Positions 36,333 to 49,409 of a stretch of 64,000 nucleotides of DNA are shown one piece after another. The first letter of the stretch is position 1. Each line of letters starts with the position of its first letter. Under the pieces are notes generated by a model. The model did not search any database, had not been told where the DNA came from, and saw only the letters and a program-made list of their open reading frames with translations. The stretch lies in the NCBI GenBank assembly GCA_000004985.1, contig GG738876.1. One strand, written 5' to 3'. This DNA is from Naegleria gruberi. Lineage: Eukaryota. The translations under genes and the position numbers were made by a program.

Positions 36333-37310
36333 ATGAAAACAAGTTTAATTATTGCAGCAATTGCAATTCTACTCTTCATTGCAGTTGTACAAGCAACTGA
36401 CAGCTATGCTCCAAAGCCTGACAGTTATGCTCCAAAGCCAGACAGTTACAAGCCACCTGTTAAGAGAGTGTGCAAGAAGAAATGTGTTGCTCACAAGTAT
36501 GTCAATGGAAAGTGTTTGAAACATAAGATTGTTGGTCAAAAGAAGGTCTGTGATAAGTATGCTATTGTTGGTGCTGGAAAATGCTTGAAATACAAAAAGT
36601 TCTCCAAGTGTGACAAGTACAGTAAGCCAATTAAGAAGTGTGTTAAGCATGCATACAAGAAGACTACTTGTGCTAAGAAGAAGTACTGGAAGGTTTGCGA
36701 TTCTTATGGAAGTAAGAAGGTCTGTGCTAAGAAGGCAAGCAAGAAGTATTGTGCCAAGTATGAAAATGTCACCAAGTGTGTCAAACATGCTACCAAGAAG
36801 GTCTGTAAGAAATTCAAGAAGGTTCCAATTAAGAAGTGTGAAAAGAAGAAGGTCTGTGACAAGTACACCACTGATTCATATGCTCCAGCCAAGTGCAAAT
36901 ATGTTAAGAAGTGTAAGGTTGTCTCCTATGCTAAGAAGTGTTGTCAATATAAGAAGATTAAGTATTGTAAGCAAAAGAAGACTTTCAAGAAGTGTTGTCA
37001 ATATAAGACTAAGCATTATTGTGCCAAGCATAAGACTATCAAATTCTGTAAGCACAAGAAGACTTTGAGCAAGTGTATCAAGTACAATAAGAAGAAGTAC
37101 TGTTGTCAATATAAGACCATTCCTTCCAAGTGTATCCATAAGAAGCATTGGAAGAAGTGTGTTAAAAAGTCAAAGGGAAAGAGAATTTGTAAGAAGCACA
37201 AGTTGACTGGTGGAAAGAAGGTCTGTAAGAAGTATGCTCAAAAGAAGGTCTGTGCTAAGAGAAAGAAGGTCTGTAAGAAGGTTGACTCTTATTTTGGTAA
37301 GAAGTGGTAA
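36333..37310 (+). CDS. Secreted, extremely basic Lys/Cys-rich repeat protein, 325 aa, novel
   Basis: Signal peptide MKTSLIIAAIAILLFIAVVQA. Then three TDSYAPKPDSYAPKPDSYKPP repeats (18-bp DNA repeats at 36398..36457). Then ~280 aa of K(K)VC/KKC/CCQYK motifs (~45 Cys, ~90 Lys). The DNA motif aagaaggtctgt recurs at least 7 times. Confidence 0.7.
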   Translation: MKTSLIIAAIAILLFIAVVQATDSYAPKPDSYAPKPDSYKPPVKRVCKKKCVAHKYVNGKCLKHKIVGQKKVCDKYAIVGAGKCLKYKKFSKCDKYSKPIKKCVKHAYKKTTCAKKKYWKVCDSYGSKKVCAKKASKKYCAKYENVTKCVKHATKKVCKKFKKVPIKKCEKKKVCDKYTTDSYAPAKCKYVKKCKVVSYAKKCCQYKKIKYCKQKKTFKKCCQYKTKHYCAKHKTIKFCKHKKTLSKCIKYNKKKYCCQYKTIPSKCIHKKHWKKCVKKSKGKRICKKHKLTGGKKVCKKYAQKKVCAKRKKVCKKVDSYFGKKW

Positions 37311-37417
37311 GGTGAAGGAGATGAAACAATTTTGAAAATTTTGTAATTTTGAAATGAAATAGTGAGAATAAATGTGTTCACCTTAATATATATTCGAAAT
37401 GATCATATCATGCTTCT

Positions 37418-37913
37418 CTAATCAATAATTGATTGTAAACTTTGTAAATGAGCCTCAATTCGAGAAGATTTCTTTTTCATATCTTCAATTTCCTTATTAA
37501 ATTGTTCAGTGAGAGGTTCCACTAGCATCATTTGTGATTTTTCAAATCGGAGTCGTATTGTTTTTTTCTCATTCTCTAGTGAACTAATTACTTTTTGAAT
37601 GGTGGCATGATTTTTTTTGGATTTGATGATTTCCTCTTGTTTTAATTCGAATAGTTCGAGAAGGTTCATTTTGGCGACTGTGTAATTCTCTGCTCGAATG
37701 ATCGTGAATGATTTTAAGTGGTACTTTCACAATAATTACAATTAATTTCGAATAACCTTCCAGCAGATTCCTCCAAAATATTTCGGAATTAATTAATTGA
37801 TCGTGAGTTGATTTGTCGATAGAGAGAATACTTCCAAGATGTTTCACGGAGAGGAATGTAAATATTTCTATTAGAATTTCTGTTGGTAAAGAGATTGACA
37901 TTTTTTTAAACAT
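37418..37913 (-). CDS. F-box protein, two exons: join(37913..37740, 37687..37418), ~147 aa
   Basis: Exon 1 contains the F-box LPTEILIEIFTFLSVKHL. A GTAATT donor at 37739 and a 52-nt intron ending ...gagcagag place exon 2 (track ORF 37418..37669, coiled-coil) in frame. Without splicing, exon 1 reads into a stop. Confidence 0.5.
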
Positions 37914-38076
37914 GAAAACTAACCTAACACGTTCGAAACTTTAATTTTGAAGGTTTGGATGGCTTCATATCATTTTCTTGTCATGGTGATAGAACATGTA
38001 CCAATTTCTTCAAACACATAATAAACATTTCGTTTTTGTTTCATTGAAATCATAAAGATCTCAAGTACTTAGTTTT

Positions 38077-40014
38077 TTAAAGCTCCTTTTTAATGAAAAC
38101 TGAATGATAGGAACGAAATGGATTTCTAATATCTTGATTTCTTCTATAAGAAGATGATGAGGATGTTTGTTGTGATATCTGATCTACATCTTCACTATAG
38201 TCCACTTCAAATCCATATAATTTTTCACCATCTTGATATTTGAGAGAGCTAATGAGATTGGACCACTCTTCTCTAGATCTATATTCTGCATAGTATTCAG
38301 TGCAAAAATTTGGCATTTCTCTAGGAGAAGACCAAACCATAGAGTACAGTCCGTGCATAATGTCCAACACGAGTGAAATCTCTGTGGGTGTGCAATCGTG
38401 TTCTCTAATAATGAATACACCACCAGGTTCTAAAACTCTGTGAATTTCCTTGATGGTCTCCTCTACATTCTTAATGTGATGAAGAGACATAAGGGCTACC
38501 ACAAGAGAAAACGAATTAGACTCATAGGGAAGCTTATTATTATCCTCACTGATGAGTGTAAAGGTAAATCCTGTTGTGTAACTCTTTCCAATATCTCTGA
38601 CATCGCAGCCGTGAATGTTTTCCTTACTTAATCCCAATTCAGTACCAACTACAGCAGTAATGGATCCTTCTGAACATCCAATGTCTAACATGTTTCTTAT
38701 TTTTGCATTGCTTGGAAGAATTTCCTTAATCTTACTCGATCTATTGTTTGCTCTATATGACGTATCAACAGATGAATCAGATGTCATTTTGGTTAAATTC
38801 ACAGGATTTTCTTGAAGATATTCACGTGATTTGAATATTTCGTTCTGAAACAAGTTGTAAAGTTGATCATAAATTTCCTGATCCTTCTCGTATTGTTCTA
38901 TAATTTTTCCAATCTTGTTTTGTACAATTTCTTGTTGCTTGAAACATTTCCTGAGCATTTGTTTTGAAAGAATTTGAATAAATCTCTTCTTGATATCTCC
39001 AGCAGAATTGAACCAAACATAACTGAATTGTTTTTGGGAGAGTACAGTTGGAAGACCATTCTTATCCAAATCCGTTTCCTTATCTGTATCTGATTCGAGA
39101 ATTGGCAATATAGCTACCATTGTATGGCCATCTTGAATGTTTCTATTTTCAATGATTTTTCTCGTTTTGCATTTTCCCTCTATTTGTTTCACCAGAGCTT
39201 CTGATTCTTCGTCTCTACCTCTGAAAATAAGTAAGGGACATTCTAAATCTTCCAAAATCTCTCTACTCATTTCACAAAGTGAATTAGTTTTGTCCTCAGC
39301 AGATTCGAATAATTTTGTCTTTGAAAAGAGGTCAATGTCAACATATATTATAGATTTGAAATATTCTACTTTTGAGTAGGATTCCCTCATCCAATCCATG
39401 AAATCCTGATTTACACAATTTACCAAATCATTAAATTTGAAGGATTTCAAATTATCTTTCAAACATTCAAATATTTCTCTATTATTTTCTACAGCCACAA
39501 TATTATCAAAGGATCCACTCTTTCTAATTAATAATAAACTTGTAGCTCCAACTCCAGCAAAACCATCTATAAGAGTATTCTTACTTCTACTCTTCTTTGA
39601 ATAGCTGAGTAATGGACAATTTTCATCTCTTACATCCAAAATCCAATTCATCATTAAAAGTTGTGATTCTTCTGGAACGAAACTCTTATAATCCAAACCA
39701 GCCAACTTGGCTAATTTATAATCACGGAATGGAAAGGCATCCTCCAAGTCTCTACATTTACTTGCTCCAATTTTATTCCTCTTATTGTAACTTCCTCTAT
39801 CATTGTGATGAGAAGATGATGAAGAAGAGTAATTCTGTTTCTTTCCATCATGATTATATTCATCTTTATTGTATTTTCCATAATCATCATAATTTCTCTT
39901 CTTATTGTAGGAACCATATGATGATGTCGAGTAATTATTCTTGTTATTACTTCGTCCCGAGGAATTATTGTATGAAGAATTGGATGATGAATTGTGATGA
40001 TAATTTCTTCTCAT
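38077..40014 (-). CDS. Bifunctional-looking SAM-dependent methyltransferase, 645 aa. It has a Tgs1/Trm-like N-terminal MTase domain plus a second C-terminal class-I MTase domain.
   Basis: N-terminal domain: IDGFAGVGATSLLLI...IVAVENN...NCVNQDFMDWM (motifs I, post-I and IV). C-terminal domain: LDIGCSEGSIT...HGCDV...LEPGGVFIIREHD (motif I and post-II). N-terminus is an S/N/Y-rich tail. Confidence 0.65.
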   Translation of the reverse strand: MRRNYHHNSSSNSSYNNSSGRSNNKNNYSTSSYGSYNKKRNYDDYGKYNKDEYNHDGKKQNYSSSSSSHHNDRGSYNKRNKIGASKCRDLEDAFPFRDYKLAKLAGLDYKSFVPEESQLLMMNWILDVRDENCPLLSYSKKSRSKNTLIDGFAGVGATSLLLIRKSGSFDNIVAVENNREIFECLKDNLKSFKFNDLVNCVNQDFMDWMRESYSKVEYFKSIIYVDIDLFSKTKLFESAEDKTNSLCEMSREILEDLECPLLIFRGRDEESEALVKQIEGKCKTRKIIENRNIQDGHTMVAILPILESDTDKETDLDKNGLPTVLSQKQFSYVWFNSAGDIKKRFIQILSKQMLRKCFKQQEIVQNKIGKIIEQYEKDQEIYDQLYNLFQNEIFKSREYLQENPVNLTKMTSDSSVDTSYRANNRSSKIKEILPSNAKIRNMLDIGCSEGSITAVVGTELGLSKENIHGCDVRDIGKSYTTGFTFTLISEDNNKLPYESNSFSLVVALMSLHHIKNVEETIKEIHRVLEPGGVFIIREHDCTPTEISLVLDIMHGLYSMVWSSPREMPNFCTEYYAEYRSREEWSNLISSLKYQDGEKLYGFEVDYSEDVDQISQQTSSSSSYRRNQDIRNPFRSYHSVFIKKEL

Positions 40015-40089
40015 TTTTTTTAATAATTAAAAATAGAAATTATTTACAAAATTAAATAATTAAAAGTAAAATAAATATTATAAAATGTA

Positions 40090-41754
40090 TTATATCAAAT
40101 TAACGTAGGATTTCTTTCTATAAATTCTACAATAAATAGTGGTCACTGAAATGATTAGTCCAGCCACCAGTAAAGCTCCAATTATACTAAACGAAACTGA
40201 AAGAGGAACAACTAGATCATTCACTGGACTTGGAGTATAAACTTGGAATGAGAATGAACACTGCTCAGATGGATCAGTACTTGAACATTGCAAAAGGAAT
40301 GCGATATTTTTGGTGGTTTCTGAAATTGGTAAGTTGAATTTTCTCTTTTCTTGTTTTGGTAATAAGGTAAACTTTTCTGAAAAGCTAACAGGAGATGGCA
40401 ATGGAATGCTATCATAAACATCATCTTGGATATAAATTTCCAGTTTTGTTTCATCAGATTTTGAGAGGGTATTGAAATTACCTTCCATAACGAGCTTTCT
40501 TGAATTTGAGATTGGAATTGCAAAGTAAATATTTTCTCCCACCTTGATAGTACCATTGATTTGTTCGTAAACTTTGTGGATGACCGGGGATGGTTTGAAT
40601 TCTGTTTGACCCATGATTGATAGGACAGTTTGATTCTTAATTGGATTCAATTCGAATTGCAAAATTTCAGATGTGTTGGAGGCAAGTTTAGTATAGCTAG
40701 ATTCGTAAAAGACTCCTTCGAATTGTGTAGCTACCAATAAACTATCATCTAGTAAATTCACTTGTTTTCCATTAATATCTGTTCTTGTGTTGTTAATCGA
40801 TTCAAAAGTATACTTGATGGTAAGTCTTGAAATATAATCTGGAATATTTGCTGTTCCATTATCTGTTTTGAAAGTGAATGAAAATGCATCCAGGAAGATA
40901 TACTCTCGATTTCTAAAACGGTGGAATTTCATATCTTTGGAATTGTAAGGGTTAAGATTAAATTGAATTGGAATGCTTGGTTGTGAAAATAATAATCTCA
41001 TTCTTCTATCAGGAAATTGAGTGAGTGGCAATGAGAAGGAAGAATGATAGGATAAATCAACATTCTCTCCCATTTGAATTTCCTTCTCAATTGGCTTACT
41101 ATTAGACACAATTTGAATAGTAATATTTTCAATGTTCCATTTTTCAAGTGCACCCAAATCAAATTGCAAACCATCTTTGAAACTGGAAGAATCTATTATT
41201 TCCTCCTTGTTTCTTACTAGAATTCTCATAGATTTTGGATCCACATTCAATACACCAATTTTATCCCAAACAATAAAACCCATTGTCACATTGTGTGAAT
41301 TATTGAAAGATTCCCTCGGGAAGTAAAATTCATACGAATCCATCAAGTAATAAGTCGAGTTATCAATCATTGAAAAGCATCTCCCTTCACAATTCTTTGT
41401 CGCCTCAAATTCAATGATTGGTTCGGAACTGTTTCCTTCAGGAATTGGAGCTGCAAAGATCAAATTGACACCAGCCAACTCTGACAAGGCAGATGGTAAG
41501 AAGAATAATTCACTCAGTGCCGTTTCATTATTAACACGAAACCATTTTGAAACTCTGCCCAACTCGCCAATATTACACGAATCAGCCTTCACCATATTAT
41601 CCATTCCATTCACTATCATCATCAGCAGCACTATTGCAATCATCAACATGCTTGAAATCACAGAATGCTTTCCCAATCGGTGATAATCAACTAGAGCACG
41701 ATTATTTCCTCTTCTTCTTGTTACAGCAGCTGCTCCGTTAAAATCTTGAATCAT
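40090..41754 (-). CDS. N-glycosylated single-ectodomain membrane protein with N-terminal signal-anchor and C-terminal TM, ~554 aa. The track start 41760 is TTG; the real ATG is at 41754.
   Basis: Hydrophobic segment ISSMLMIAIVLLMMIV; more than 15 NxS/T sequons; C-terminal LVVPLSVSFSIIGALLVAGLIISV followed by a basic tail. Confidence 0.55.
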   Translation of the reverse strand: MIQDFNGAAAVTRRRGNNRALVDYHRLGKHSVISSMLMIAIVLLMMIVNGMDNMVKADSCNIGELGRVSKWFRVNNETALSELFFLPSALSELAGVNLIFAAPIPEGNSSEPIIEFEATKNCEGRCFSMIDNSTYYLMDSYEFYFPRESFNNSHNVTMGFIVWDKIGVLNVDPKSMRILVRNKEEIIDSSSFKDGLQFDLGALEKWNIENITIQIVSNSKPIEKEIQMGENVDLSYHSSFSLPLTQFPDRRMRLLFSQPSIPIQFNLNPYNSKDMKFHRFRNREYIFLDAFSFTFKTDNGTANIPDYISRLTIKYTFESINNTRTDINGKQVNLLDDSLLVATQFEGVFYESSYTKLASNTSEILQFELNPIKNQTVLSIMGQTEFKPSPVIHKVYEQINGTIKVGENIYFAIPISNSRKLVMEGNFNTLSKSDETKLEIYIQDDVYDSIPLPSPVSFSEKFTLLPKQEKRKFNLPISETTKNIAFLLQCSSTDPSEQCSFSFQVYTPSPVNDLVVPLSVSFSIIGALLVAGLIISVTTIYCRIYRKKSYVNLI

Positions 41755-42053
41755 TTTCAAAGATTTGGTGTGGGACTTTTTTTTTTGGTTTGAGATTTTT
41801 CAAAAATCGTTTTTCTAGAATGCTTCCAATTTGTTTTGACTGAATTTTGATGAGCCAAGCAAAGCGCGTAAAATAGTATTGTAACACAACAAAATTGTTC
41901 CATTGCACAATGAGAAGATATTGAGGGTAACCATCTAAAAGATAGGTTAGGACCTAGATATATGGTATAAGGCAGGTTGACTTGTATTGAAAATAAATAT
42001 TATTTAAATATTTACAATTTAATAAAATTTAAATTAAATATTCCTTTAAAAAA

Positions 42054-43635
42054 ATGAATCAAGATGAAACTCTAGAAAATTCATCACCATCATCATCCGC
42101 TCTACCCAATTCAACTTCCGATATTAATCCTTCAGCTCCTATTATTAACAATGGTAATAAGAGTTTCTTTGCATTTGAAAAGAGTCCCATCGACATTGAT
42201 AGAGTAAAATTAATTCCAACCCAACATGTTCTCCAATCTCAAGTTTATGAAGCCATTTCCATGATGAATGATAAGAATGATTTAAATAATAACAATAATA
42301 ATAAGGAAATATTATCATCATCATTAATGTTGAAGAATTTTCCATTGTTAGAATGTATTCCACGTGTTCCGATGACAACTTCCTCTCATCAGATGGTCTA
42401 CGTTCCGAATATGAGAAGTATTTTAGTATGGGGAGGAGCAAAGGTTGAAATTAGACCTTTGGATTATAATTTATTGAGTGGAAGATATGTTAATGATGAG
42501 AATAGTGAGAAGGAGATTGGATTGAATCATTGGATTGATTCGGATGGATTGAAGATTGATGTTTCTGAAGTGAATGATAATGTCTTGTCGAGTTATTTGG
42601 ATACTTCATTCTCATGTTTGGATTTGAAGAGTGAGAAATGGGAAACTAGGATACATTGCTCTTTTAAAGAGTTTGAATCATCTATTCAAATGGAAAGTGG
42701 AAAATGATGAAAATGTGGAGACTATTTTCAATTGTTCACCAACTTCTTCAAAGACAAGTCATTCATGTATTTACAATGATAAGGATAATTTAATTTATAT
42801 TTTGGGAGGTGTTTCACATGATGTGGAACAAACATTGAAAATATTTACTTTTTCATTACAAAATAGACAGTGGACTTGTTATAATTTCAAAGATACACTC
42901 AATCCTAATATCCCTTCTCCACATTTGAAAGGTCAAGTTGCCACCTATAGACCACAAACAAACACTATCCATGTCTATGGAGGTCAATATATAGATGACT
43001 ATGAATTAATATCAAACGATTGTATTTATGTTTACAATTGCACCACTAGTAAATGGGAAAATAGGTTGGTACCAGACTTACCTATTCTAGGTCGTTCCTT
43101 TTCCACCTGTGCATATTGCAAGAAGGCAGATTCCATGTTTGTATTTGGTGGTGTTCTAAATGTTATTGGAGAATTGACCAATGAATTGTGTCAGTACAGT
43201 TTTTCAGAAAACCAATGGACTGTCTACAAATACGCCTCCTCTAAGCCAATTAAACCAGTTTATGGACATTGTATGTGCTTAATTGACGATCGTTACATGT
43301 TCATTTATGGAGGTTGTGAACAAGCATTGACACCAATTCCTTCCTCTCAGTGTATTGTTTTTGACATTCTTGCTCAGAGATGGTACGATTTGAGTGAAGT
43401 TTTACAATTATTCAATTCAGTAGAAAATCCAGCTCAGATGCCACCTCTCAATTCTTCATCAATAATTTTCGATGAAAATAGTAGAAGAATTATCATTTAC
43501 GGAGGAAATGAAATTGAAAATGGAAACAAGACTTCCAATACCAGATTTTTATTCTTACTCAAAGATGGAAATAACAATTTAGAAAATATGATTGGAAAAC
43601 CAAAACTTTCAGATGTTCTAGTGGAGACCTTATAA
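42054..43635 (+). CDS. Kelch-repeat (beta-propeller) protein encoded in two overlapping frames (42054..42707 and 42628..43635). Either a frameshift/pseudogene or an unresolved splice.
   Basis: Kelch blades ILGGVSHD, VYGGQYIDDYE, FVFGGVLN, IYGGCEQ, IIYGGNE. The second ORF starts on GTG. No canonical intron reconciles the frames. Confidence 0.45.
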
Positions 43636-43712
43636 AATGTCTATTTTCTATGTGAAATTCTTGATACTTCCAGTATCCACTCGAACTTCGTTCTCATACA
43701 CAAACCAAAAAA

Positions 43713-44213
43713 ATGCCAAAACCTGCACCGAGCAGAACTAAATTAACAACATCAATCGTATCCCATCCCTATGCAAAAAAGAAGGAAGAAATTAATCAAA
43801 TCAATTCAAAAATTCAAAAACTCACCACTTTTCAGAAAAGAGTGTATGTTGCATTAACTAGAATTCCTTCGGGTCGGGTTACAACTTATGCCGGGTTGGC
43901 CAATTACTTGGATTGTAAATCGTCACAAGCAGTTGGTCAGGCATTGAAGAGAAATCCATTTGCTCCTGAAATTCCTTGTCATCGTGTTATAAAATCCAAT
44001 ACGTTTCATATTGGAGGATTTATGGGGAAAACCGAGGGAGATGAAATTGTAAAAAAGACAAGGTTATTGAAAGAGGAAGGAGTTGAATTTGATTCTAGTG
44101 GTGTGTTGATTGATAGAAAATTGATTCATTCCTTTGCAGATGATTCTGAATTGGAGAAGGATGACAAGGAGCTTGATTCACTTCTTTGTGATTTGTTAAA
44201 TTTCAAAAAATAA
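43713..44213 (+). CDS. MGMT: O6-methylguanine-DNA methyltransferase (MGMT/Ogt/Mgt1), 166 aa
   Basis: Active-site motif IPCHRVI and flanking helix-turn-helix (RVTTYAGLANYLDCKSSQAVGQALKRNP). Confidence 0.85.
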   Translation: MPKPAPSRTKLTTSIVSHPYAKKKEEINQINSKIQKLTTFQKRVYVALTRIPSGRVTTYAGLANYLDCKSSQAVGQALKRNPFAPEIPCHRVIKSNTFHIGGFMGKTEGDEIVKKTRLLKEEGVEFDSSGVLIDRKLIHSFADDSELEKDDKELDSLLCDLLNFKK

Positions 44214-44250
44214 TATTGTAAATAGATTCCAATATTTGTAAATAATTACA

Positions 44251-45326
44251 TTATTTCATTTCCATCTTTTCTTCATACTTTTTATATTCTATAATTTCGT
44301 AGAGCTCGCTTCTAGTTTGCATTGTAGAAAGTACAGGTTCAACAGTTCCATTCTTGGAAATTGATTCGTACACATTCTTTGCAGCTTTAGCCATAGCTCT
44401 AAATGCACTCAATGGGTGGAGAACCATTGAAACACCAACACTAGCCAATTCTTCTCCAGTAAACAGAGGTGTTTTACCTAAAATTTAGATATTGAAATAT
44501 TGAAATTCAAATCTTTGAAATATTCGAAATAATACTTACCAAATTCTGTAATATTGGCCAAAATTGGAACATTTACTTGCTCTACAAAGGCTTTATACTC
44601 TTCCAGAGTTGTGCATGCTTCAGGGAACAACATATCTGCACCAGCATTCACATACTGTTTTGCTCTTTCAATTGCCTTTTCCAATCCTTCAACTGCCAAC
44701 GCATCAGTTCTAGCAATAATGACAAAATCCGAATCCACCCTAGCTTCACAAGCTGCCTTAATTTTCTCCACCATTTCCTCCGTACTAACTATTTGCTTAT
44801 TAGGTAAATGTCCACAACGTTTCACACTTTGAATTTGATCCTCAATATGAATAGCTGCTACTCCAACTCGTTCCATCTCTCTTACACACCTCATCACATT
44901 CAAAACTCCTCCAAATCCTTTTTCAAAATTAATATTTATTTCCATTCAATATAAATATAATATTAAATATAATATAATAAATATAATAATTAAAATATCA
45001 ATTCCATAAAAACACATACCAGTATCCACATCCACAAGTAATGGCAAATTAGTACATGATGTAATTCTCCTTGCATCCTCCAAAACATCACTCAAATTAG
45101 TCATTCCCATGTCTGGTAATCCAAAACTAGCTGTGGCCACACCACTTCCACTCAAATAAATTGCCTGATGACCACATTCTTCTGCTAACAAGGCTGTAAA
45201 TGCATTGATGGTTCCGACAATGTGGAGTGGTTGTTTATTGTTTTGGTTTTGGTTTTGGAGGGAAAGTTTGAATTTCTTCCCTGGAGAGAGTTTGGTAGAG
45301 GGTGATTGGCAAATTGTGTTGAGCAT
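44251..45326 (-). CDS. Isocitrate-lyase/PEP-mutase superfamily enzyme (2-methylisocitrate lyase / oxaloacetase-like), three exons: join(45326..45020, 44917..44540, 44477..44251), ~304 aa
   Basis: Motifs LLVDVDTG|GFGG and [13 protein letters not shown]|[11 protein letters not shown]...[11 protein letters not shown] aligns with bacterial PrpB. Intron 1 is 102 nt (GTATGT...ttgaaaaag). Intron 2 is 62 nt (GTAAGT...aaattttag). Track ORFs 44946..45326, 44478..44945 and 44251..44448 are the exons plus read-through. Confidence 0.8.
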
Positions 45327-45854
45327 TTTTTTTTTGGTTTTGGAAATTTGGAATTGTTTTGAATTTCGAATAGAGGAATCGCTTAATATTTGGAGGATTA
45401 TTTGGTCAATATTCTTGAGGTTAATGAGAAGTGTTGAATTAATAAAGTTAGCTCTTAAAATTTATTCTATTTGTTTCAAGTTCTTGTTTGAACTATGTGA
45501 GGATTAGGATACGAATTTGATGTGGTGCTGTTTTAAACATAAATTCTTATTGGAAAGTTGTTTGATTTAATCAGAAAGGTCAATTGCTAAATTTTGGGTT
45601 TCCGATAGCCAAATTGTGGATTCGAATAGACTTCCTAGACCTGTAAGAACATGGCGACGAACTCTATAGAATTCCATTCCCTCTCCAAGCTCAAGTTCTG
45701 TGCGCTACATGACAACATGTGAAAGAAACTTACTGCAATAAAAACCTTCATATCTGCGTACATTTCGTACCAATAGAAAGAAAACTAAACCAATTTCCAA
45801 ACACCCAAAAAAAAACGAAACAAACTCTCAAGAACCCAACAACAAATTCTCAAA

Positions 45855-47183
45855 ATGAATCATCTTAAACGATTGATTGTTTTGGCTCTTGTAGTTGTAC
45901 TCATGTTTGTCGTCTCACTTTCACATGCTCAAGACGAACAACAGGAAAACAACAATAAGAGACCACCAAGACCTTTACCTTCAGGTAGACCACCAAGACC
46001 ACATCCAGATCATTCTGGAGGGCGACCACCTCGCCCATTCCCATCTGGAGGAAGACCACCACGTCCAGATCATTCAGGAAGAAGACCAAGACCAGATCAT
46101 TCTGGTGAGAGACCACATCCACCAGGTCCACAACCAGATCATTCAGGAAGAAGACCACCAAGACCTGGTCCACATCCTGGTCAATCAGGATTACCACCAC
46201 GTTCTGATGAACAAGATGGTCAAAGTGAAAATAGACCTCGTCCACCAAGACCTCATCCAGAACGTTCAGGTGAAAGACCACATCCAAGACCTTTCCCATC
46301 TGGAGGTAGACCACCAAGACCAGACCACTCAGGAAGAAGACCAGGTCCACATCCAGATCATTCTGGAAGACCACCTCGTCCACATCCAAGACCAGAACCA
46401 TCTTCTGAAGATGACGAACACTCTGATAGACTTGAACAAGGAAACAGACCTCGTCCACCAAGACCAGATCGTTCAGGTTTGCCACCTCGTCCATTCCCAT
46501 CTGGAGGAAGACCACCAAGACCAGATCATTCAGGAAGAAGACCACATCCAAGACCTGAACACTCTGGTGAGAGACCACATCCAAGACCAGCTCACTCTGG
46601 TGAAAGACCACCAAGACCAGATCATTCAGGAAGAAGACCAAGACCAGGTCCACAACCAGACCAATCGGGAAGACCACCTCGTCCTTATCCAGAACATTCT
46701 GGTGAAAGACCAGGCCCACGTCCTCAACCACAAGAATCAACTTCATCCTTAATAGGTGAAAGACCACCAAGACCTGATAGATCTGGAAGACCACCTCGTC
46801 CATTCCCATCTGGAGGCAGACCACCAAGACCAGGCCCATCTGGAGGAAGACCAGGTCCTGGACCAGGTCCACAACCTGATGTTTCATCTGTTGAAGATCC
46901 ACTCATTGATGCTCAAAATAATACCAAGAATGAAATTCCAAATGGACCATCCAATGGTTCTGATGCTTTGGCCATTGTCTTTGGTGTTATTGGTGCAATT
47001 GTTGTCATGGCTGCTATTGCTCTTGTCATTGGAAGTGGAATTGCTGTTTTTGTTTTGAAGAAGAAGGGTTATTCACTCTCATTGAAGAAACATCAAATGT
47101 TGAGAGATGAAGACGAATTTGAATATCCACAACAAGACCAAACTCCAATTTACTCTGTCAATCAACCAGTTGCTCAAAATTAG
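45855..47183 (+). CDS. Type-I membrane-anchored Pro/Arg-rich tandem-repeat protein, 442 aa: signal peptide, ~30 repeats of RPPRP(D/H)HSG(G/E/R), and a C-terminal TM plus short cytoplasmic tail
   Basis: Signal peptide MNHLKRLIVLALVVVLMFVVSLSHA. 27-nt DNA periodicity across 45960..46870. C-terminal TM ALAIVFGVIGAIVVMAAIALVIGSGIAVFVL followed by KKKGY. Overlapping ORFs in other frames and antisense are repeat artefacts. Confidence 0.7.
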   Translation: MNHLKRLIVLALVVVLMFVVSLSHAQDEQQENNNKRPPRPLPSGRPPRPHPDHSGGRPPRPFPSGGRPPRPDHSGRRPRPDHSGERPHPPGPQPDHSGRRPPRPGPHPGQSGLPPRSDEQDGQSENRPRPPRPHPERSGERPHPRPFPSGGRPPRPDHSGRRPGPHPDHSGRPPRPHPRPEPSSEDDEHSDRLEQGNRPRPPRPDRSGLPPRPFPSGGRPPRPDHSGRRPHPRPEHSGERPHPRPAHSGERPPRPDHSGRRPRPGPQPDQSGRPPRPYPEHSGERPGPRPQPQESTSSLIGERPPRPDRSGRPPRPFPSGGRPPRPGPSGGRPGPGPGPQPDVSSVEDPLIDAQNNTKNEIPNGPSNGSDALAIVFGVIGAIVVMAAIALVIGSGIAVFVLKKKGYSLSLKKHQMLRDEDEFEYPQQDQTPIYSVNQPVAQN

Positions 47184-47579
47184 GTTCAATTTAAGTTTTT
47201 CAAAGATTATCGAGCGATAATAACACATTAATTTGCACTACTCTAAAGTGTGCATTCTCTCCTTGTGAGTACAAATTTACAAAATAAATACATTATTTCA
47301 TTGGTAAATTGATTGGTCTGAAAACTTAATTGTAATCTTTCCTTTATTAAAATCTCAAAGTAAAATTCCAACATCATCAATTTAAAAAATTGTCGTTAGA
47401 GCTCCTTCTCTTTGTTCATCATCATCAGTAATAATAATACTTGTGCGTTGAGAAGAATTGTTCTTTTGGTGGATCATCACAATTTGACTTGAGGAATTTA
47501 AATTATCTTTCACAAACAATTCAACGTTTTGATTAAACCTATTGCTTTTTTGTATATTTGTGGAACATTAGGTATTAGG

Positions 47580-49409
47580 ATGAAGAATAGTTATTCCACA
47601 TCAACGAGTGGTGGAATTTTATATAGTTCCGAATTTATTCAAGTTAATTTAGCTGCTGATGCAAAGGGTGATGAAGAAAATGGTTTTCAACCCAAGGCTG
47701 CATGTGTCTCTTGTAGAAAGCTACATCGTCGATGCTCAAAGGAATTTCCGAAATGCTCTGAATGTGTTACTCATCACAGAAAGTGTATTTACATGGATAC
47801 AAAAACAAAAGAAAGAAATCTAGCCTCATCATCATCAACAGATCGCACTACTAGTAGAGATAGTAGGGGTAATAACCAGAATAATAATAACAGCAAACGA
47901 TCAATGAGGAGAGCAGCGTCTACAATTGAAGAACCTCAAATTGCAATCACAGAGGGACTAATTAAGAAAAGTATCAAGAGACAAACGTTCAATGTCTATA
48001 TGGACTTGGTTTGTATGGGACTACCATTCATTACCCCTCAAAATTTTGAAAACATGCTCTTTTCTGAGAATATTCTGAATCAAAACACTAATGCAACCAG
48101 TATTAAGGCATTATTTCTATCAATACAGTCATTGTGTGATCAACGGTTTGGAAGAAGGGATGCTGCTATTGCTGCCTTCAATGAAGCAAAAAGTGAGCTA
48201 CATCAAGTTTTTGAAGATTACGATAACTATCTAAATATTTGTACATATAATAATTTAGCTTACTTTTCTGGTGCTGAGGGAGAGGATCAAATGTCACAAT
48301 GGTTCATGTCACCAGTAGAGTATTACCTATCAAAATATTCTGAATTGAATTTTAATTCCCATAACGAGCTGATAGGACTTGCCTTTGAAAATTTGAACAA
48401 AGGGAGTGGAATAACTAAATTATTTTATTTTGATAATAGATACAAATGGACAAGTCTCACTTTTGGAGATTATATAGGAATACCTTTCAAGTTATCTACT
48501 GGGAAAAGATTACCTCCTGAATTGAAGCAATTGGTGGATCGTGATTTGAATGAAAACACAGCACAAGCTGAGTCAGCAGTTCTTCAATGCATTCTTCAAT
48601 TTATGAAACAACACCATCAAAAGCTTGTGCATTCACCTGGTTTTCTCAACTTGTCTCGCATAGTGGATGTATCTAGTTTTACCAAAACAAGAATAGAATC
48701 ACTCCGAGTACTCTATTCAAAAGCAAATAGCCAAGAAAAGAGAGAGTTATTTTTCAAAGAAATGCTCAATCTTGCAAATACGACTACTGAACTAAGCAAG
48801 GATGATCTATTCCCATACATTTTACCTACCAATATTTTTGGTTTTGCTCTAGCTGCAGAAATTCATTTGGAAGCATTGTCTAATTTTTCTCATTTAGTAT
48901 CTGTTAGCGAAATTTTAGGGCATCTCAAACAAGATTTCCTAGCCCTTACTGTCCTTGCAAGGAAATATGGAAGAGTGCAGAAAGTTTATGGGTACATCTA
49001 TGATGAAATTCAGTCGGTATTGTTAAATAATGGAGTTCCTGCTGAAGAGTTATTGAACCTCATTTCTAATAATTCATTCAAAACACCATCTACCCCTAAA
49101 TTATATCCCCCTATTACTGTAAATAATCAAACCCATACAATTTCTCCCACCAACAACTCAACAGATCAAGTTATAACTTCTGAAAACTCTTCGCCCACTT
49201 CTGAAAATGTATCAAAGAAGAAGGATTTTCCATCGGCAGCTTTTCTTAATAATACGCTTCGTAATTTCAAGAAAACAATTTCCAACCAAGAAATTTGCAC
49301 GATAACTCCTCGAAGTTCTACAACATCAGATAGCCCAATTAATGAGGAAGAAATATCCTGCTTGAAAAATCAAACACTCTCAATACTGCAACAAACATTT
49401 TCAAAATAA
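47580..49409 (+). CDS. Gal4-type Zn(II)2Cys6 binuclear-cluster transcription factor, 609 aa. The track start 47529 is TTG; the first ATG is at 47580.
   Basis: ACVSCRKLHRRCSKEFPKCSECVTHHRKC has exact CX2CX6CX6CX2CX6C spacing near the N-terminus. Confidence 0.75.
   Translation: MKNSYSTSTSGGILYSSEFIQVNLAADAKGDEENGFQPKAACVSCRKLHRRCSKEFPKCSECVTHHRKCIYMDTKTKERNLASSSSTDRTTSRDSRGNNQNNNNSKRSMRRAASTIEEPQIAITEGLIKKSIKRQTFNVYMDLVCMGLPFITPQNFENMLFSENILNQNTNATSIKALFLSIQSLCDQRFGRRDAAIAAFNEAKSELHQVFEDYDNYLNICTYNNLAYFSGAEGEDQMSQWFMSPVEYYLSKYSELNFNSHNELIGLAFENLNKGSGITKLFYFDNRYKWTSLTFGDYIGIPFKLSTGKRLPPELKQLVDRDLNENTAQAESAVLQCILQFMKQHHQKLVHSPGFLNLSRIVDVSSFTKTRIESLRVLYSKANSQEKRELFFKEMLNLANTTTELSKDDLFPYILPTNIFGFALAAEIHLEALSNFSHLVSVSEILGHLKQDFLALTVLARKYGRVQKVYGYIYDEIQSVLLNNGVPAEELLNLISNNSFKTPSTPKLYPPITVNNQTHTISPTNNSTDQVITSENSSPTSENVSKKKDFPSAAFLNNTLRNFKKTISNQEICTITPRSSTTSDSPINEEEISCLKNQTLSILQQTFSK

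What the first reader, a model, noticed from the sequence alone, without database searches (positions are those of the whole stretch)
45855..47183. Membrane-anchored protein built from ~30 tandem RPPRP-x-HSG nonapeptides: PrAMP-like polyprecursor or novel HRGP-like surface protein
After a signal peptide the ectodomain is almost purely (G)RPPRP(D/H/F)(H/P)SG(G/E/R), with 27-bp DNA periodicity. It ends in a single TM and a short KKKGY... tail. The repeat unit resembles proline-arginine-rich antimicrobial peptides (apidaecin, drosocin, Bac5/PR-39: RP/PRP motifs with His or Phe spacers). Apidaecin-type peptides are made from multi-copy precursors. Alternatively it is an extensin/mucin-like cell-surface glycoprotein. 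Either way I know of no characterised family with this repeat.
Basis: partly seen in the sequence, partly recalled or inferred. Interest (0 to 1): 0.6.

Follow-up and report, generated by a model that had tools for sequence, protein, structure and literature searches.

The report
Naegleria proline-arginine repeat membrane protein
This is a real but apparently unannotated gene of the amoeba Naegleria gruberi that encodes a membrane-anchored protein with a long, floppy, positively charged proline-arginine repeat on the outside; it belongs to a small uncharacterised Naegleria-only family and is more likely a surface stalk or adhesion protein than a precursor of antimicrobial peptides.

Summary
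The ORF 45855..47183 (+) is real. It encodes 442 aa: a signal peptide, a Pro/Arg/His/Ser/Gly repeat ectodomain, one long TM helix and a 41-aa tail starting KKKGYS. There are about 23 degenerate units of 9-14 aa, not 30 nonapeptides. They form four cationic blocks (+7 to +12) separated by proline-free acidic linkers.

The window is Naegleria gruberi NEG-M, not an amoebozoan or fungus. The protein is absent from a 15-billion-protein collection, so it appears unannotated.

Exhaustive HMMER finds relatives only in Naegleria-type sequences: three N. gruberi paralogues, three metagenome proteins, and a Naegleria contaminant scaffold in the leech Helobdella assembly. The conserved part of the family is the TM helix plus tail. 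dN/dS is 0.056 against the contaminant orthologue. Repeat number varies from about 1 to 23.

No Pfam or PDB family matches. Extensin and AGP motifs are absent (zero Ser-Pro). The units are too short, too acidic and too poor in hydrophobic residues for PrAMPs, and the only dibasic sites are RR-Pro.

Best reading: a lineage-specific type I surface protein with a disordered, PPII-like polycationic stalk. Function is inferred. A phagosome-activated PrAMP-like pro-protein is not excluded (about 10%).

The parts
45855..47183 (+). Complete single-exon ORF, 442 codons plus stop. It is the largest member of a Naegleria-restricted family of RPPRP...SG-repeat type I membrane proteins.
   Evidence: dN/dS is 0.056 over the C-terminal 106 codons against L001. 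The exact sequence is not in the protein collection.
45855..45929 (+). Signal peptide, residues 1-25 (MNHLKRLIVLALVVVLMFVVSLSHA), with predicted cleavage before QDEQQ.
   Evidence: The hydrophobicity windows for residues 1-27 have KD 1.9-2.75. AlphaFold2 predicts an N-terminal helix. The same ...A|Q(D/E) junction is present in the paralogues. The cleavage site is inferred from the -3/-1 rule, not from a predictor.
45930..45956 (+). Acidic, proline-free N-terminal cap, QDEQQENNN (net -3).
   Evidence: A similar cap is present in P0001, P0009 and P0010.
45957..46202 (+). Cationic Pro-Arg repeat block 1 (82 aa, net +12, 7 His, 35% Pro).
46203..46232 (+). Acidic linker 1, SDEQDGQSEN (net -4, no Pro).
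46233..46397 (+). Cationic repeat block 2 (55 aa, net +8, 6 His).
46398..46445 (+). Acidic linker 2, PSSEDDEHSDRLEQGN (net -5).
46446..46727 (+). Cationic repeat block 3 (94 aa, net +12, 7 His).
46728..46760 (+). Polar linker 3, PQESTSSLIGE (net -2).
46761..46877 (+). Cationic repeat block 4 (39 aa, net +7, no His, 41% Pro).
46878..46964 (+). Acidic membrane-proximal spacer (29 aa, net -5) carrying the only two N-x-S/T sequons (NNT at 355, NGS at 367).
   Evidence: It is 94% conserved in the L001 orthologue.
46965..47057 (+). Long (31-aa) transmembrane helix, ALAIVFGVIGAIVVMAAIALVIGSGIAVFVL, with conserved small-residue motifs (G-V-I-G-A and G-S-G-I).
   Evidence: KD reaches 3.07. AlphaFold2 predicts a helix at 369-403 with pLDDT 65-77. 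Gly positions are conserved across the paralogues.
47058..47183 (+). Cytoplasmic tail (41 aa) plus stop. It contains the KKKGYS[LI]S[LI].K juxtamembrane motif, the acidic cluster LRDEDE, and P-I-Y-S near the C-terminus.
   Evidence: Invariant columns across the family are K402, K404, G405, Y406, S407, K412, Q414, L416, E419, P425 and P431. The orientation follows the positive-inside rule and is inferred.

Best explanation
This is a genuine, intronless gene of Naegleria gruberi NEG-M that appears to be unannotated. It encodes a type I membrane protein and is the largest member of a small family found only in Naegleria-type sequences.

Shown here:
- A signal peptide directs the N-terminal 345 residues out of the cytoplasm.
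- That ectodomain has no predicted fold. It is built from about 23 degenerate units whose core is (R/G/E)-R-P-P-R-P-x(1-4)-[H/P/R/Q]-S-G.
- The units are arranged in four cationic blocks that alternate with proline-free acidic linkers.
- A long TM helix rich in small residues and a 41-aa tail follow. These are the conserved part of the family and are under purifying selection.
- Across the family the repeat array has grown and shrunk from about 1 to about 23 units. This happened through duplication of 27-42-bp units and of 200-255-bp superunits.

Inferred:
- The protein sits in the plasma membrane or the endocytic membrane system. It projects a proline-stiffened (PPII-like) stalk tens of nanometres long.
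- The stalk is polycationic, net about +21 at neutral pH and about +42 when its 21 His residues are protonated.
- The stalk acts as a non-enzymatic contact or spacer element. It would bind anionic surfaces such as bacterial prey envelopes, the substratum or the cell's own glycocalyx.
- The conserved TM and tail mediate oligomerisation, sorting or coupling to cytoplasmic partners.
For: Real gene:
- Between the window and the orthologue on L001, the C-terminal 106 codons show 25.5 synonymous and 6.5 non-synonymous differences, giving dN/dS 0.056.
- The pentapeptide RPPRP occurs 15 times and is encoded by 8 different 15-mers, so the peptide is better conserved than the DNA.

Organism: four neighbouring ORFs are exact matches to N. 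gruberi proteins EFC42968, EFC42969, EFC42970 and EFC42975.

Unannotated: the exact-sequence look-ups fail. Neither the full-length nor the C-terminal search returns a self-hit.

Family:
- P0001 is 46% identical with the same architecture.
- The exhaustive profile search of 1.84 billion representatives returns 10 proteins at E<=1e-3. The strong hits are N. gruberi paralogues P0001 and P0009, Naegleria-like metagenome proteins P0010 and P0011, and the Helobdella contaminant P0002.
- P0027 and P0025 carry the same repeat on a different TM and tail.

Conserved core: the TM plus tail.

Disorder and topology.

Charge architecture.

Experimental analogue: Entamoeba nuttalli PTORS has a signal peptide, 42 octapeptide repeats and a C-terminal TM. 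It was localised to the cell surface by immunofluorescence (PMC6917348).
Against: - No expression, localisation or binding data were available for this gene or for any paralogue. No paper in the library mentions them.
- The tail has no canonical YxxO, NPxY or dileucine signal in the window protein. Plasma-membrane versus endolysosomal residence is therefore open.
- The alternation of cationic blocks with acidic spacers is also what an antimicrobial pro-protein looks like.
- The conserved His-Ser-Gly triplet (11 of 22 units) is not explained by a purely electrostatic stalk.
- No relatives named as N. fowleri or N. lovaniensis were recovered. That could reflect absence, divergence, or the same under-annotation.
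Confidence: 0.5

Rival explanations
1. It is a membrane-tethered antimicrobial pro-protein. The TM and tail route it to phagosomes or lysosomes. There, proteases cut at the acidic linkers or at the Asn before each block. This releases 39-94-aa Pro-Arg polycations whose charge doubles on His protonation, and these act on ingested bacteria in the manner of Bac7 or PR-39.
For: - Four cationic blocks (+7 to +12) alternate with acidic linkers, as in many AMP precursors.
- Block 4 is 39 aa with net +7, which is the size of PR-39. This comparison rests on my own knowledge of PR-39.
- The hexamer RPRPPR is shared with the oncocin and Bac7 sequences I recalled.
- Blocks 1-3 are each preceded by Asn: NNNK|RPPRP, SEN|RPRPPRP, QGN|RPRPPRP.
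- N. gruberi feeds on bacteria (established knowledge).
Against: - The ectodomain has 3.7% hydrophobic residues against 16-30% in PrAMPs, and 11% acidic residues. Net charge per residue is 0.075 overall and 0.13-0.18 within the blocks.
- There are no regular dibasic or dipeptidyl processing sites. All five RR sites are followed by Pro.
- The repeat sequence and copy number are the least conserved part of the family.
- No cathelicidin or other pro-domain is present.
- No peptide or activity data exist.
Confidence: 0.1
2. It is a glycoprotein scaffold of the mucin or HRGP type. The Ser of the ...SG motif, or hydroxylated Pro, would carry glycans, and the function would be a hydrated protective coat or a cyst-wall link.
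For: - There are 22 regularly spaced Ser-Gly dipeptides, often flanked by D or E, in a Pro-rich extended chain.
- Five units read S-G-E.
- Two N-glycosylation sequons lie near the membrane.
- PTORS-type amoebal surface repeats are predicted to be O-glycosylated.
Against: - There are zero Ser-Pro dipeptides and zero SPPP or [AST]P[AST]P motifs.
- The whole protein contains only 3 Thr residues, and Ser makes up about 9% of it, far from a PTS mucin domain.
- A TM plus a cytoplasmic tail is unusual for wall proteins.
- The N-glycosylation sequons are not conserved in P0001.
Confidence: 0.15
3. It is a metal- or pH-sensing repeat protein. The P-x-H-S-G units would coordinate Cu(II), Zn(II) or Ni(II), or titrate with pH, like the PHGGGWGQ octarepeats of the prion protein or the GHHPH repeats of histidine-rich glycoprotein. 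The TM and tail would transmit or internalise the signal or cargo.
For: - His-Ser-Gly closes 11 of the 22 units and recurs in every paralogue, including the subfamily with a different tail.
- The ectodomain holds 21 His residues.
- His preceded by Pro or Asp and followed by small residues is the geometry used by the PrP octarepeat (own knowledge, not tested).
Against: - Half of the units carry P, R or Q in place of H.
- Block 4 has no His at all.
- There is no Cys or Trp, and there are no multi-His clusters.
- No binding data exist.
Confidence: 0.1
4. It is not a functional gene. The long ORF would be a by-product of a stop-free DNA repeat.
For: - Two other long ORFs overlap it in other frames: 285 aa on the + strand and 333 aa on the - strand.
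- The gene is missing from the reference protein set.
Against: - Only this frame has a signal peptide, a TM helix and a tail.
- dN/dS is 0.056 against the orthologue.
- Three N. gruberi paralogues share the architecture.
- The motif enrichment is specific to the peptide level.
Confidence: 0.03

Closest known systems
Naegleria gruberi predicted proteins NAEGRDRAFT_71308 (EFC40987, P0001) and NAEGRDRAFT_62673 (EFC49360, P0009). Both are uncharacterised.
   Same: These are true homologues. They share the signal peptide, the acidic cap, PPRP...SG units, an acidic spacer, a TM helix with the same Gly positions, and the tail [IL]LKKKGYS[IL]SL.K..HQ.LREEE...P..Y[SN].
   Different: They carry only about 4-10 units in a single cationic block, against about 23 units in four blocks here. 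They have a C-terminal extension, VHYP[NIT][LI], that fits a YxxO sorting motif and that the window protein lacks. No function is known for any of them.
[quoted passage not shown]
   Same: Both are lineage-specific amoebal proteins with a signal peptide, a long disordered Pro-containing tandem array and a C-terminal TM helix. PTORS has been shown experimentally to sit on the cell surface.
   Different: There is no sequence relationship and the host supergroup is different. The PTORS unit, [G,E]KPTDTPS, is Thr/Ser-rich, near-perfect and close to neutral or acidic. The Naegleria units are Arg/His-rich, degenerate and cationic. PTORS has no conserved cytoplasmic tail of this kind.
Trypanosoma brucei procyclins (EP/GPEET; Pfam Trypan_PARP)
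   Same: Both work as a rod-like Pro-repeat surface coat in a discobid protist. The Willaertia relative P0016 gives a compositional sub-threshold hit to PF05887 (14 bits against a cutoff of 100).
   Different: Procyclins are acidic Glu-Pro repeats and are GPI-anchored (own knowledge). The protein here is cationic and has a TM helix plus a tail. It is not a member.
Proline-rich antimicrobial peptides (apidaecin, oncocin, pyrrhocoricin, drosocin, Bac5, Bac7, PR-39) and the apidaecin multi-copy precursor
   Same: Both have RP, PRP and PPRP motifs with His or Phe nearby. Stretches of up to six residues are shared (RPRPPR).
   Different: The units are 9-14 aa and contain D or E. There are almost no hydrophobic residues and no regular processing sites. 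The protein is membrane-anchored and has no PrAMP pro-domain.
Plant and algal hydroxyproline-rich glycoproteins (extensins, AGPs, PRPs) and animal basic salivary proline-rich proteins
   Same: All are secretory-pathway proteins with extended Pro-rich tandem repeats.
   Different: There is no Ser-Pro(n) motif, no [AST]P glycomotif and no Tyr cross-link motif. HRGPs are wall or secreted proteins, not type I proteins with a conserved tail.

Membership tests
Apidaecin-type PrAMP polyprecursor | Many near-identical mature-peptide copies, each flanked by regular processing sites (a dibasic site plus an acidic or dipeptidyl spacer). | tested here: not met
   The units are 9-14 aa and variable, with only 4 exact RPPRPDHSG copies. 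Only five RR sites lie in the array, and all are RR-Pro. There is no regular spacer between units.
Apidaecin-type PrAMP polyprecursor | The mature peptide is at least about 15-20 aa, strongly cationic, nearly free of acidic residues, and carries hydrophobic or aromatic residues. | tested here: not met
   The ectodomain has net charge per residue of 0.075, 11% acidic residues and 3.7% hydrophobic residues. Nine reference PrAMPs show 0.13-0.31, 0-13% and 16-30% (the reference sequences were recalled from memory). At the level of whole blocks (0.13-0.18 net per residue) the test is inconclusive.
Apidaecin-type PrAMP polyprecursor | A soluble secreted precursor. | tested here: not met
   A 31-aa TM helix and a 41-aa conserved tail are present.
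Apidaecin-type PrAMP polyprecursor | Released peptides that kill bacteria or inhibit the ribosome or DnaK. | not testable with these tools
   This needs peptide synthesis and assays.
HRGP (extensin/AGP/PRP) | Ser-Pro(3-5), [AST]-Pro or PPVYK glycomotifs. | tested here: not met
   The ectodomain contains 0 SP, 0 SPP, 0 SPPP, 0 [AST]P[AST]P and 0 PPVYK.
HRGP (extensin/AGP/PRP) | Prolyl hydroxylation and O-glycosylation. | not testable with these tools
   This needs amino-acid analysis or glycoproteomics.
Mucin-like or procyclin-like protist surface coat protein | A signal peptide, a long low-complexity tandem-repeat ectodomain and a membrane anchor. | tested here: met
Mucin-like or procyclin-like protist surface coat protein | A Ser/Thr-rich (PTS) domain for mucins, or a GPI anchor for procyclins. 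| tested here: not met
   Ser is 9% and there are 3 Thr residues in the whole protein. The hydrophobic segment is followed by a 41-aa hydrophilic tail, so it is not a GPI signal.
Naegleria RPPRP...SG type I membrane protein family (defined here) | A signal peptide with an ...A|Q(D/E) junction, PPRP-x(0-5)-SG units and an acidic membrane-proximal spacer. | tested here: met
   There are 14 motif matches against a shuffle mean of 0.41. The paralogues have 1-6 matches against 0.00-0.04.
Naegleria RPPRP...SG type I membrane protein family (defined here) | A TM helix with conserved Gly or small residues, followed by a KKKGYS[IL]S tail (subfamily 1). | tested here: met
   The invariant columns are I396, K402, K404, G405, Y406, S407, K412, Q414, L416 and E419. 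Profile hits are E 1.2e-109, 1.7e-32, 9.7e-32, 1.3e-23 and 3.0e-11.
SARAF (PF06682) | A Pfam match at or above the gathering score. | tested here: not met
   The window protein has no hit. The paralogues score 13-21 bits against a cutoff of 30.8. The match aligns their signal peptide plus Pro-rich region to the TM plus low-complexity part of the profile, so it is compositional.
His-containing metal-binding tandem repeats (PrP octarepeat or HRG type) | One His per unit in a Pro/Gly context, with measured metal binding. | tested here: inconclusive
   HSG is present in 11 of 22 units and recurs in all paralogues. The other units lack His. Metal binding cannot be tested here.

The most novel reading that the evidence does not exclude
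The protein is a membrane-tethered, pH-switchable antimicrobial pro-protein of a bacterivorous amoeba. The conserved TM and tail would deliver it to phagosomes. Lysosomal proteases, possibly legumain-type cleavage at the Asn before each block, would remove the acidic spacers. The freed 39-94-aa Pro-Arg-His polycations would be fully charged only at acidic pH and would attack ingested bacteria. This would be a protist origin or convergence of the PrAMP strategy outside animals.
Probability: 0.1. Interest if true: 0.75.

Novelty: new variant of a known kind. Interest (0 to 1): 0.3.

Why it matters
- It adds a gene that appears to be missing from the reference annotation of a model heterolobosean, Naegleria gruberi NEG-M.
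- It defines a small, previously undescribed Naegleria family. N. gruberi has at least four paralogues, and there are two tail types. The family consists of type I membrane proteins with a cationic Pro-Arg-His repeat ectodomain.
- Surface molecules of Naegleria that contact prey, substratum or host are poorly known. A tens-of-nanometres polycationic stalk with a conserved tail is a concrete candidate for studies of adhesion or phagocytosis.
- If the minority reading were right, it would extend proline-rich antimicrobial peptides to protists.
- As it stands, this is an orphan low-complexity surface protein. That kind of protein is common in protists, so general interest is modest.

Tried and rejected
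- **Pfam.** The target has no family. The SARAF and Trypan_PARP hits in relatives are sub-threshold and compositional.
- **PDB sequence search.** It returned only a 12-bit chance hit.
- **AlphaFold2.** The model has mean pLDDT 50.5 and no fold, so I ran no fold search.
- **Exact-sequence contig look-ups.** The target, P0001 and P0027 are not on record. I could therefore not examine the paralogue loci in N. gruberi.
- **JGI metagenome scan with the family profile.** There were 431 pattern matches and none was confirmed.
- **Literature.** No paper names the paralogues and none prints the repeat. The searches on Naegleria surface or proline-rich proteins gave nothing specific.
- **Mp2CL5 lead.** Mp2CL5 is an N. 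fowleri membrane protein of 19.9 kDa. Its sequence was not obtainable, because PMC10353451 is not held and the LAMP paper targets another gene. It stays an untested lead.
- **P0013 and P0014.** P0014 is a Chlamydomonas eustigma protein with PHPQPTTSGLV repeats. I rejected both as convergent low complexity.
- **P0012.** This Tara transcript carries ERPPRPDFSG six times and has no TM helix. Its relationship is undecided.
- **Bradykinin (RPPGFSPFR) and snake bradykinin-potentiating peptides.** I considered the resemblance and dropped it as compositional only.
Full report
**Observation**

The + strand ORF 45855..47183 is present exactly as stated and encodes 442 residues. Hydrophobicity analysis finds two hydrophobic segments. 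One is an N-terminal signal-peptide-like segment (residues 1-27...SLSHA|QDE). The other is a 31-residue core at 371-401, followed by KKKGY. AlphaFold2, run with the two-sequence alignment, predicts helices only at 2-34 and 369-403. Everything else has pLDDT of about 40-55, so the ectodomain has no predicted fold.

The composition is P 23.5%, R 13.8%, G 10.8%, S 9.0%, H 5.4%. The repetition is far beyond chance:
- The motif PPRP-x(0-5)-S[GS] occurs 14 times, against a shuffle mean of 0.41 and a maximum of 3 in 300 shuffles.
- Residue autocorrelation peaks at lags 9, 10 and 11.
- Tandem Repeats Finder reports arrays of period 27, 30, 33 and 42 bp.

- There are about 23 units (22 end in Ser-Gly) of 9-14 residues.
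- Only four copies are exactly RPPRPDHSG, and there are fifteen RPPRP cores.
- The array is not uniform. Four cationic blocks (net +12, +8, +12, +7) alternate with proline-free acidic or polar linkers (SDEQDGQSEN, PSSEDDEHSDRLEQGN, PQESTSSLIGE).
- An acidic cap (QDEQQENNN) sits at the N-terminus, and a 29-residue acidic spacer lies next to the membrane.
- At the DNA level a 101-nt higher-order unit recurs five times at 65-81% identity, and 50-nt units recur 17 times at 60-76%. The array therefore arose by old duplications of both single units and superunits. It is not a recent microsatellite-like expansion.

**Where it comes from**

Four neighbouring ORFs in the window are exact matches to Naegleria gruberi NEG-M proteins EFC42968, EFC42969, EFC42970 and EFC42975, on a 396,977-bp scaffold. 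The organism is therefore a heterolobosean amoeboflagellate, not an amoebozoan or a fungus.

The target protein itself is not in the 15-billion-sequence collection by exact look-up. Neither a full-length search nor a search with the last 105 residues returns a self-hit. The gene thus appears to be missing from the deposited N. gruberi protein sets.

**It is a real, selected gene**

The C-terminal query found a 94%-identical protein annotated as Helobdella robusta HELRODRAFT_184566. Its 6,077-bp scaffold, KB095922.1 (L001), is syntenic with window 41362-47299 at 72-92% nucleotide identity. It contains a 4.4-kb run of N where the repeats should be. It is evidently a Naegleria-type contaminant of the leech assembly, and the leech gene model is a chimera.

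Over the 106 alignable C-terminal codons there are 25.5 synonymous and 6.5 non-synonymous differences (dS 0.48, dN 0.027, dN/dS 0.056). That is strong purifying selection in this reading frame.

Within the gene, the fifteen RPPRP cores are written with eight different 15-mers, so the peptide is better conserved than the DNA. The 285-aa and 333-aa ORFs in other frames lack any of these properties. They are by-products of a stop-free repeat.

**The family**

I built a profile from the target and its first hit and searched it against every one of 1.84 billion representative proteins. It returned ten proteins at E<=1e-3. The credible ones are:
- N. gruberi NAEGRDRAFT_71308 (P0001, 260 aa, E 1e-109).
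- N. gruberi NAEGRDRAFT_62673 (P0009, 206 aa, E 1e-31).
- The Helobdella contaminant, P0002.
- Two metagenome proteins, P0010 and P0011.

A second search added N. gruberi P0027 and metagenome P0025. These carry the same RPPRP-x-HSG units on a different TM and tail. The P0025 locus shows a signal peptide and further units in an adjacent frame.

A Willaertia magna protein (P0016) has RPRP-x-PS repeats after its signal peptide but is otherwise different. No hit was named as coming from any other taxon, except for convergent low-complexity sequences (P0013, P0014). One unexplained Tara Oceans transcript (P0012) has six (E/G)RPPRPDFSG decapeptides and no TM helix.

In the family alignment the invariant positions lie overwhelmingly in the TM helix and tail. 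The pattern is G.IG[GA]IV...G[AS]GI...[IL][LI]KKKGYS[IL]S[LI].K..HQ.LREEE...P..Y[SN]. The number of repeat units ranges from about one (P0010) to about 23 in the window protein. The window protein looks like three to four tandem copies of the 'acidic linker plus cationic block' module that occurs once in each paralogue.

**Comparison with known families**

- Pfam gives nothing for the target.
- The paralogues give only sub-threshold SARAF hits (13-21 bits against a cutoff of 30.8). Those hits align a hydrophobic helix plus Pro-rich stretch to the equivalent low-complexity part of the profile, so they are compositional.
- PDB sequences give nothing.
- No paper in the library names the paralogues or prints the repeat.

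- The units are shorter than any active PrAMP I know of, and they are variable.
- There is no regular processing spacer.
- The only dibasic sites in the array are five HSG-RR-P, with Pro at P1'.
- The ectodomain has 3.7% hydrophobic residues, 11% acidic residues and net charge of 0.075 per residue. Nine reference PrAMPs, whose sequences I recalled from memory, show 16-30%, 0-13% and 0.13-0.31.
- Shared strings are at most six residues, RPRPPR.
- The precursor is membrane-anchored, and the anchor is the most conserved part.

The apidaecin-type model therefore fails its defining features. A weaker version survives. Whole blocks are 39-94 aa with 0.13-0.18 net charge per residue. I estimate about 0.23 per residue for block 1 if its His residues are protonated. 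The blocks alternate with acidic spacers, and three of them follow an Asn. That is compatible with a pro-protein activated in an acidic, protease-rich compartment. I give this about 10%.

There is not a single Ser-Pro dipeptide, and there are no SPPP, [AST]P[AST]P or PPVYK motifs. Membership is not met. Glycosylation of the regularly spaced Ser-Gly remains possible but cannot be tested here.

**Most likely mechanism**

Shown: a signal peptide, a disordered Pro-stiffened cationic ectodomain in block-polyampholyte arrangement, an unusually long TM helix rich in small residues, and a conserved tail.

Inferred:
- The protein is type I, by the positive-inside rule (KKK after the helix).
- It probably resides in the plasma membrane or the endocytic membrane system. 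The long TM helix is typical of late secretory and plasma membranes (established knowledge).
- It presents a stalk tens of nanometres long. The stalk's net charge is about +21 and would roughly double in acid, because it carries 21 His residues.
- The simplest function is non-enzymatic contact with anionic surfaces or spacing from them. Candidates are bacterial prey, the substratum and the cell's own coat.
- The conserved TM helix (small-xxx-small motifs) and tail would provide oligomerisation, sorting or cytoskeletal coupling.

The closest experimentally characterised analogue, not a homologue, is Entamoeba nuttalli PTORS. It has a signal peptide, 42 octapeptide repeats and a C-terminal TM helix, and it has been shown to sit on the cell surface (PMC6917348). 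T. brucei procyclins are a functional analogue within Discoba, but they are acidic and GPI-anchored (own knowledge).

The conserved His-Ser-Gly triplet (11 of 22 units, and present in all paralogues) is not explained by charge alone. It keeps a metal- or pH-sensing variant alive.

**Verdict**

The two specific readings, an apidaecin-like polyprecursor and an HRGP, both fail their defining features.

This is a new variant of a familiar kind of thing, a lineage-specific tandem-repeat surface protein of a protist. It carries two small bonuses: an apparently unannotated gene, and a newly delineated Naegleria family. Interest is modest (0.3). The most novel surviving reading, a phagosome-activated PrAMP-like pro-protein, would be interesting (0.75) but has a probability of only about 0.1.

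Noticed in passing
L001 1-6077 (Helobdella robusta scaffold KB095922.1), matching window 41362-47299: This leech-assembly scaffold is Naegleria-type DNA. It is syntenic with the window at 72-92% nucleotide identity. Its only gene model, HELRODRAFT_184566, is a chimera spliced across a 4.4-kb run of N. It is contamination in a public animal genome.
   Followed up: partly
window 36333-37310 (+): A 325-aa ORF has a signal peptide, three DSYAPKP repeats and then about 290 residues of extremely Lys/Cys-rich sequence (KKVCxK-like). The exact sequence is not in the protein collection. It is a possible secreted or wall protein of unknown kind.
   Followed up: no
window 47529-49409 (+): The downstream neighbour carries a Zn(2)-Cys(6) 'fungal' binuclear cluster domain (PF00172, E 5.8e-8). 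That is an unusual transcription-factor type to see in a heterolobosean.
   Followed up: no
window 45895-46752 (+) and 45901-46902 (-): Long ORFs of 285 and 333 aa overlap the target in other frames. They have no signal peptide, TM helix or homologues. They are stop-free by-products of the repeat composition.
   Followed up: yes
P0012 (Tara Oceans/MERC transcript ERR1711976_395981): A secreted protein without a TM helix, from an unidentified marine eukaryote, carries six (E/G)RPPRPDFSG decapeptides. These are nearly the same unit as in Naegleria. Whether this is convergence or distant homology is undecided.
   Followed up: partly
window 45948-45971, 46224-46253, 46437-46466: Cationic blocks 1-3 each begin right after an Asn: NNNK|RPPRP, SEN|RPRPPRP, QGN|RPRPPRP. 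These could be legumain-type cleavage sites. This was not tested.
   Followed up: no
window 36333-47183: Four of the eight window ORFs tested by exact look-up are absent from the protein collection: 36333-37307, 38080-40014, 42054-42704 and the target. Only four accession numbers (EFC42971-42974) lie between the flanking matched genes, for about eight ORF-defined genes. The region may be under-annotated or modelled differently.
   Followed up: partly
L002 4354-4941 and L003 3472-4151 (metagenome ERZ929261, PRJEB11402): One metagenome holds both tail subfamilies of the repeat family, so it contains a Naegleria-like organism. In L003 the signal peptide and first units lie in a different frame from the called gene, which points to a frameshift or a small intron.
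   Followed up: partly
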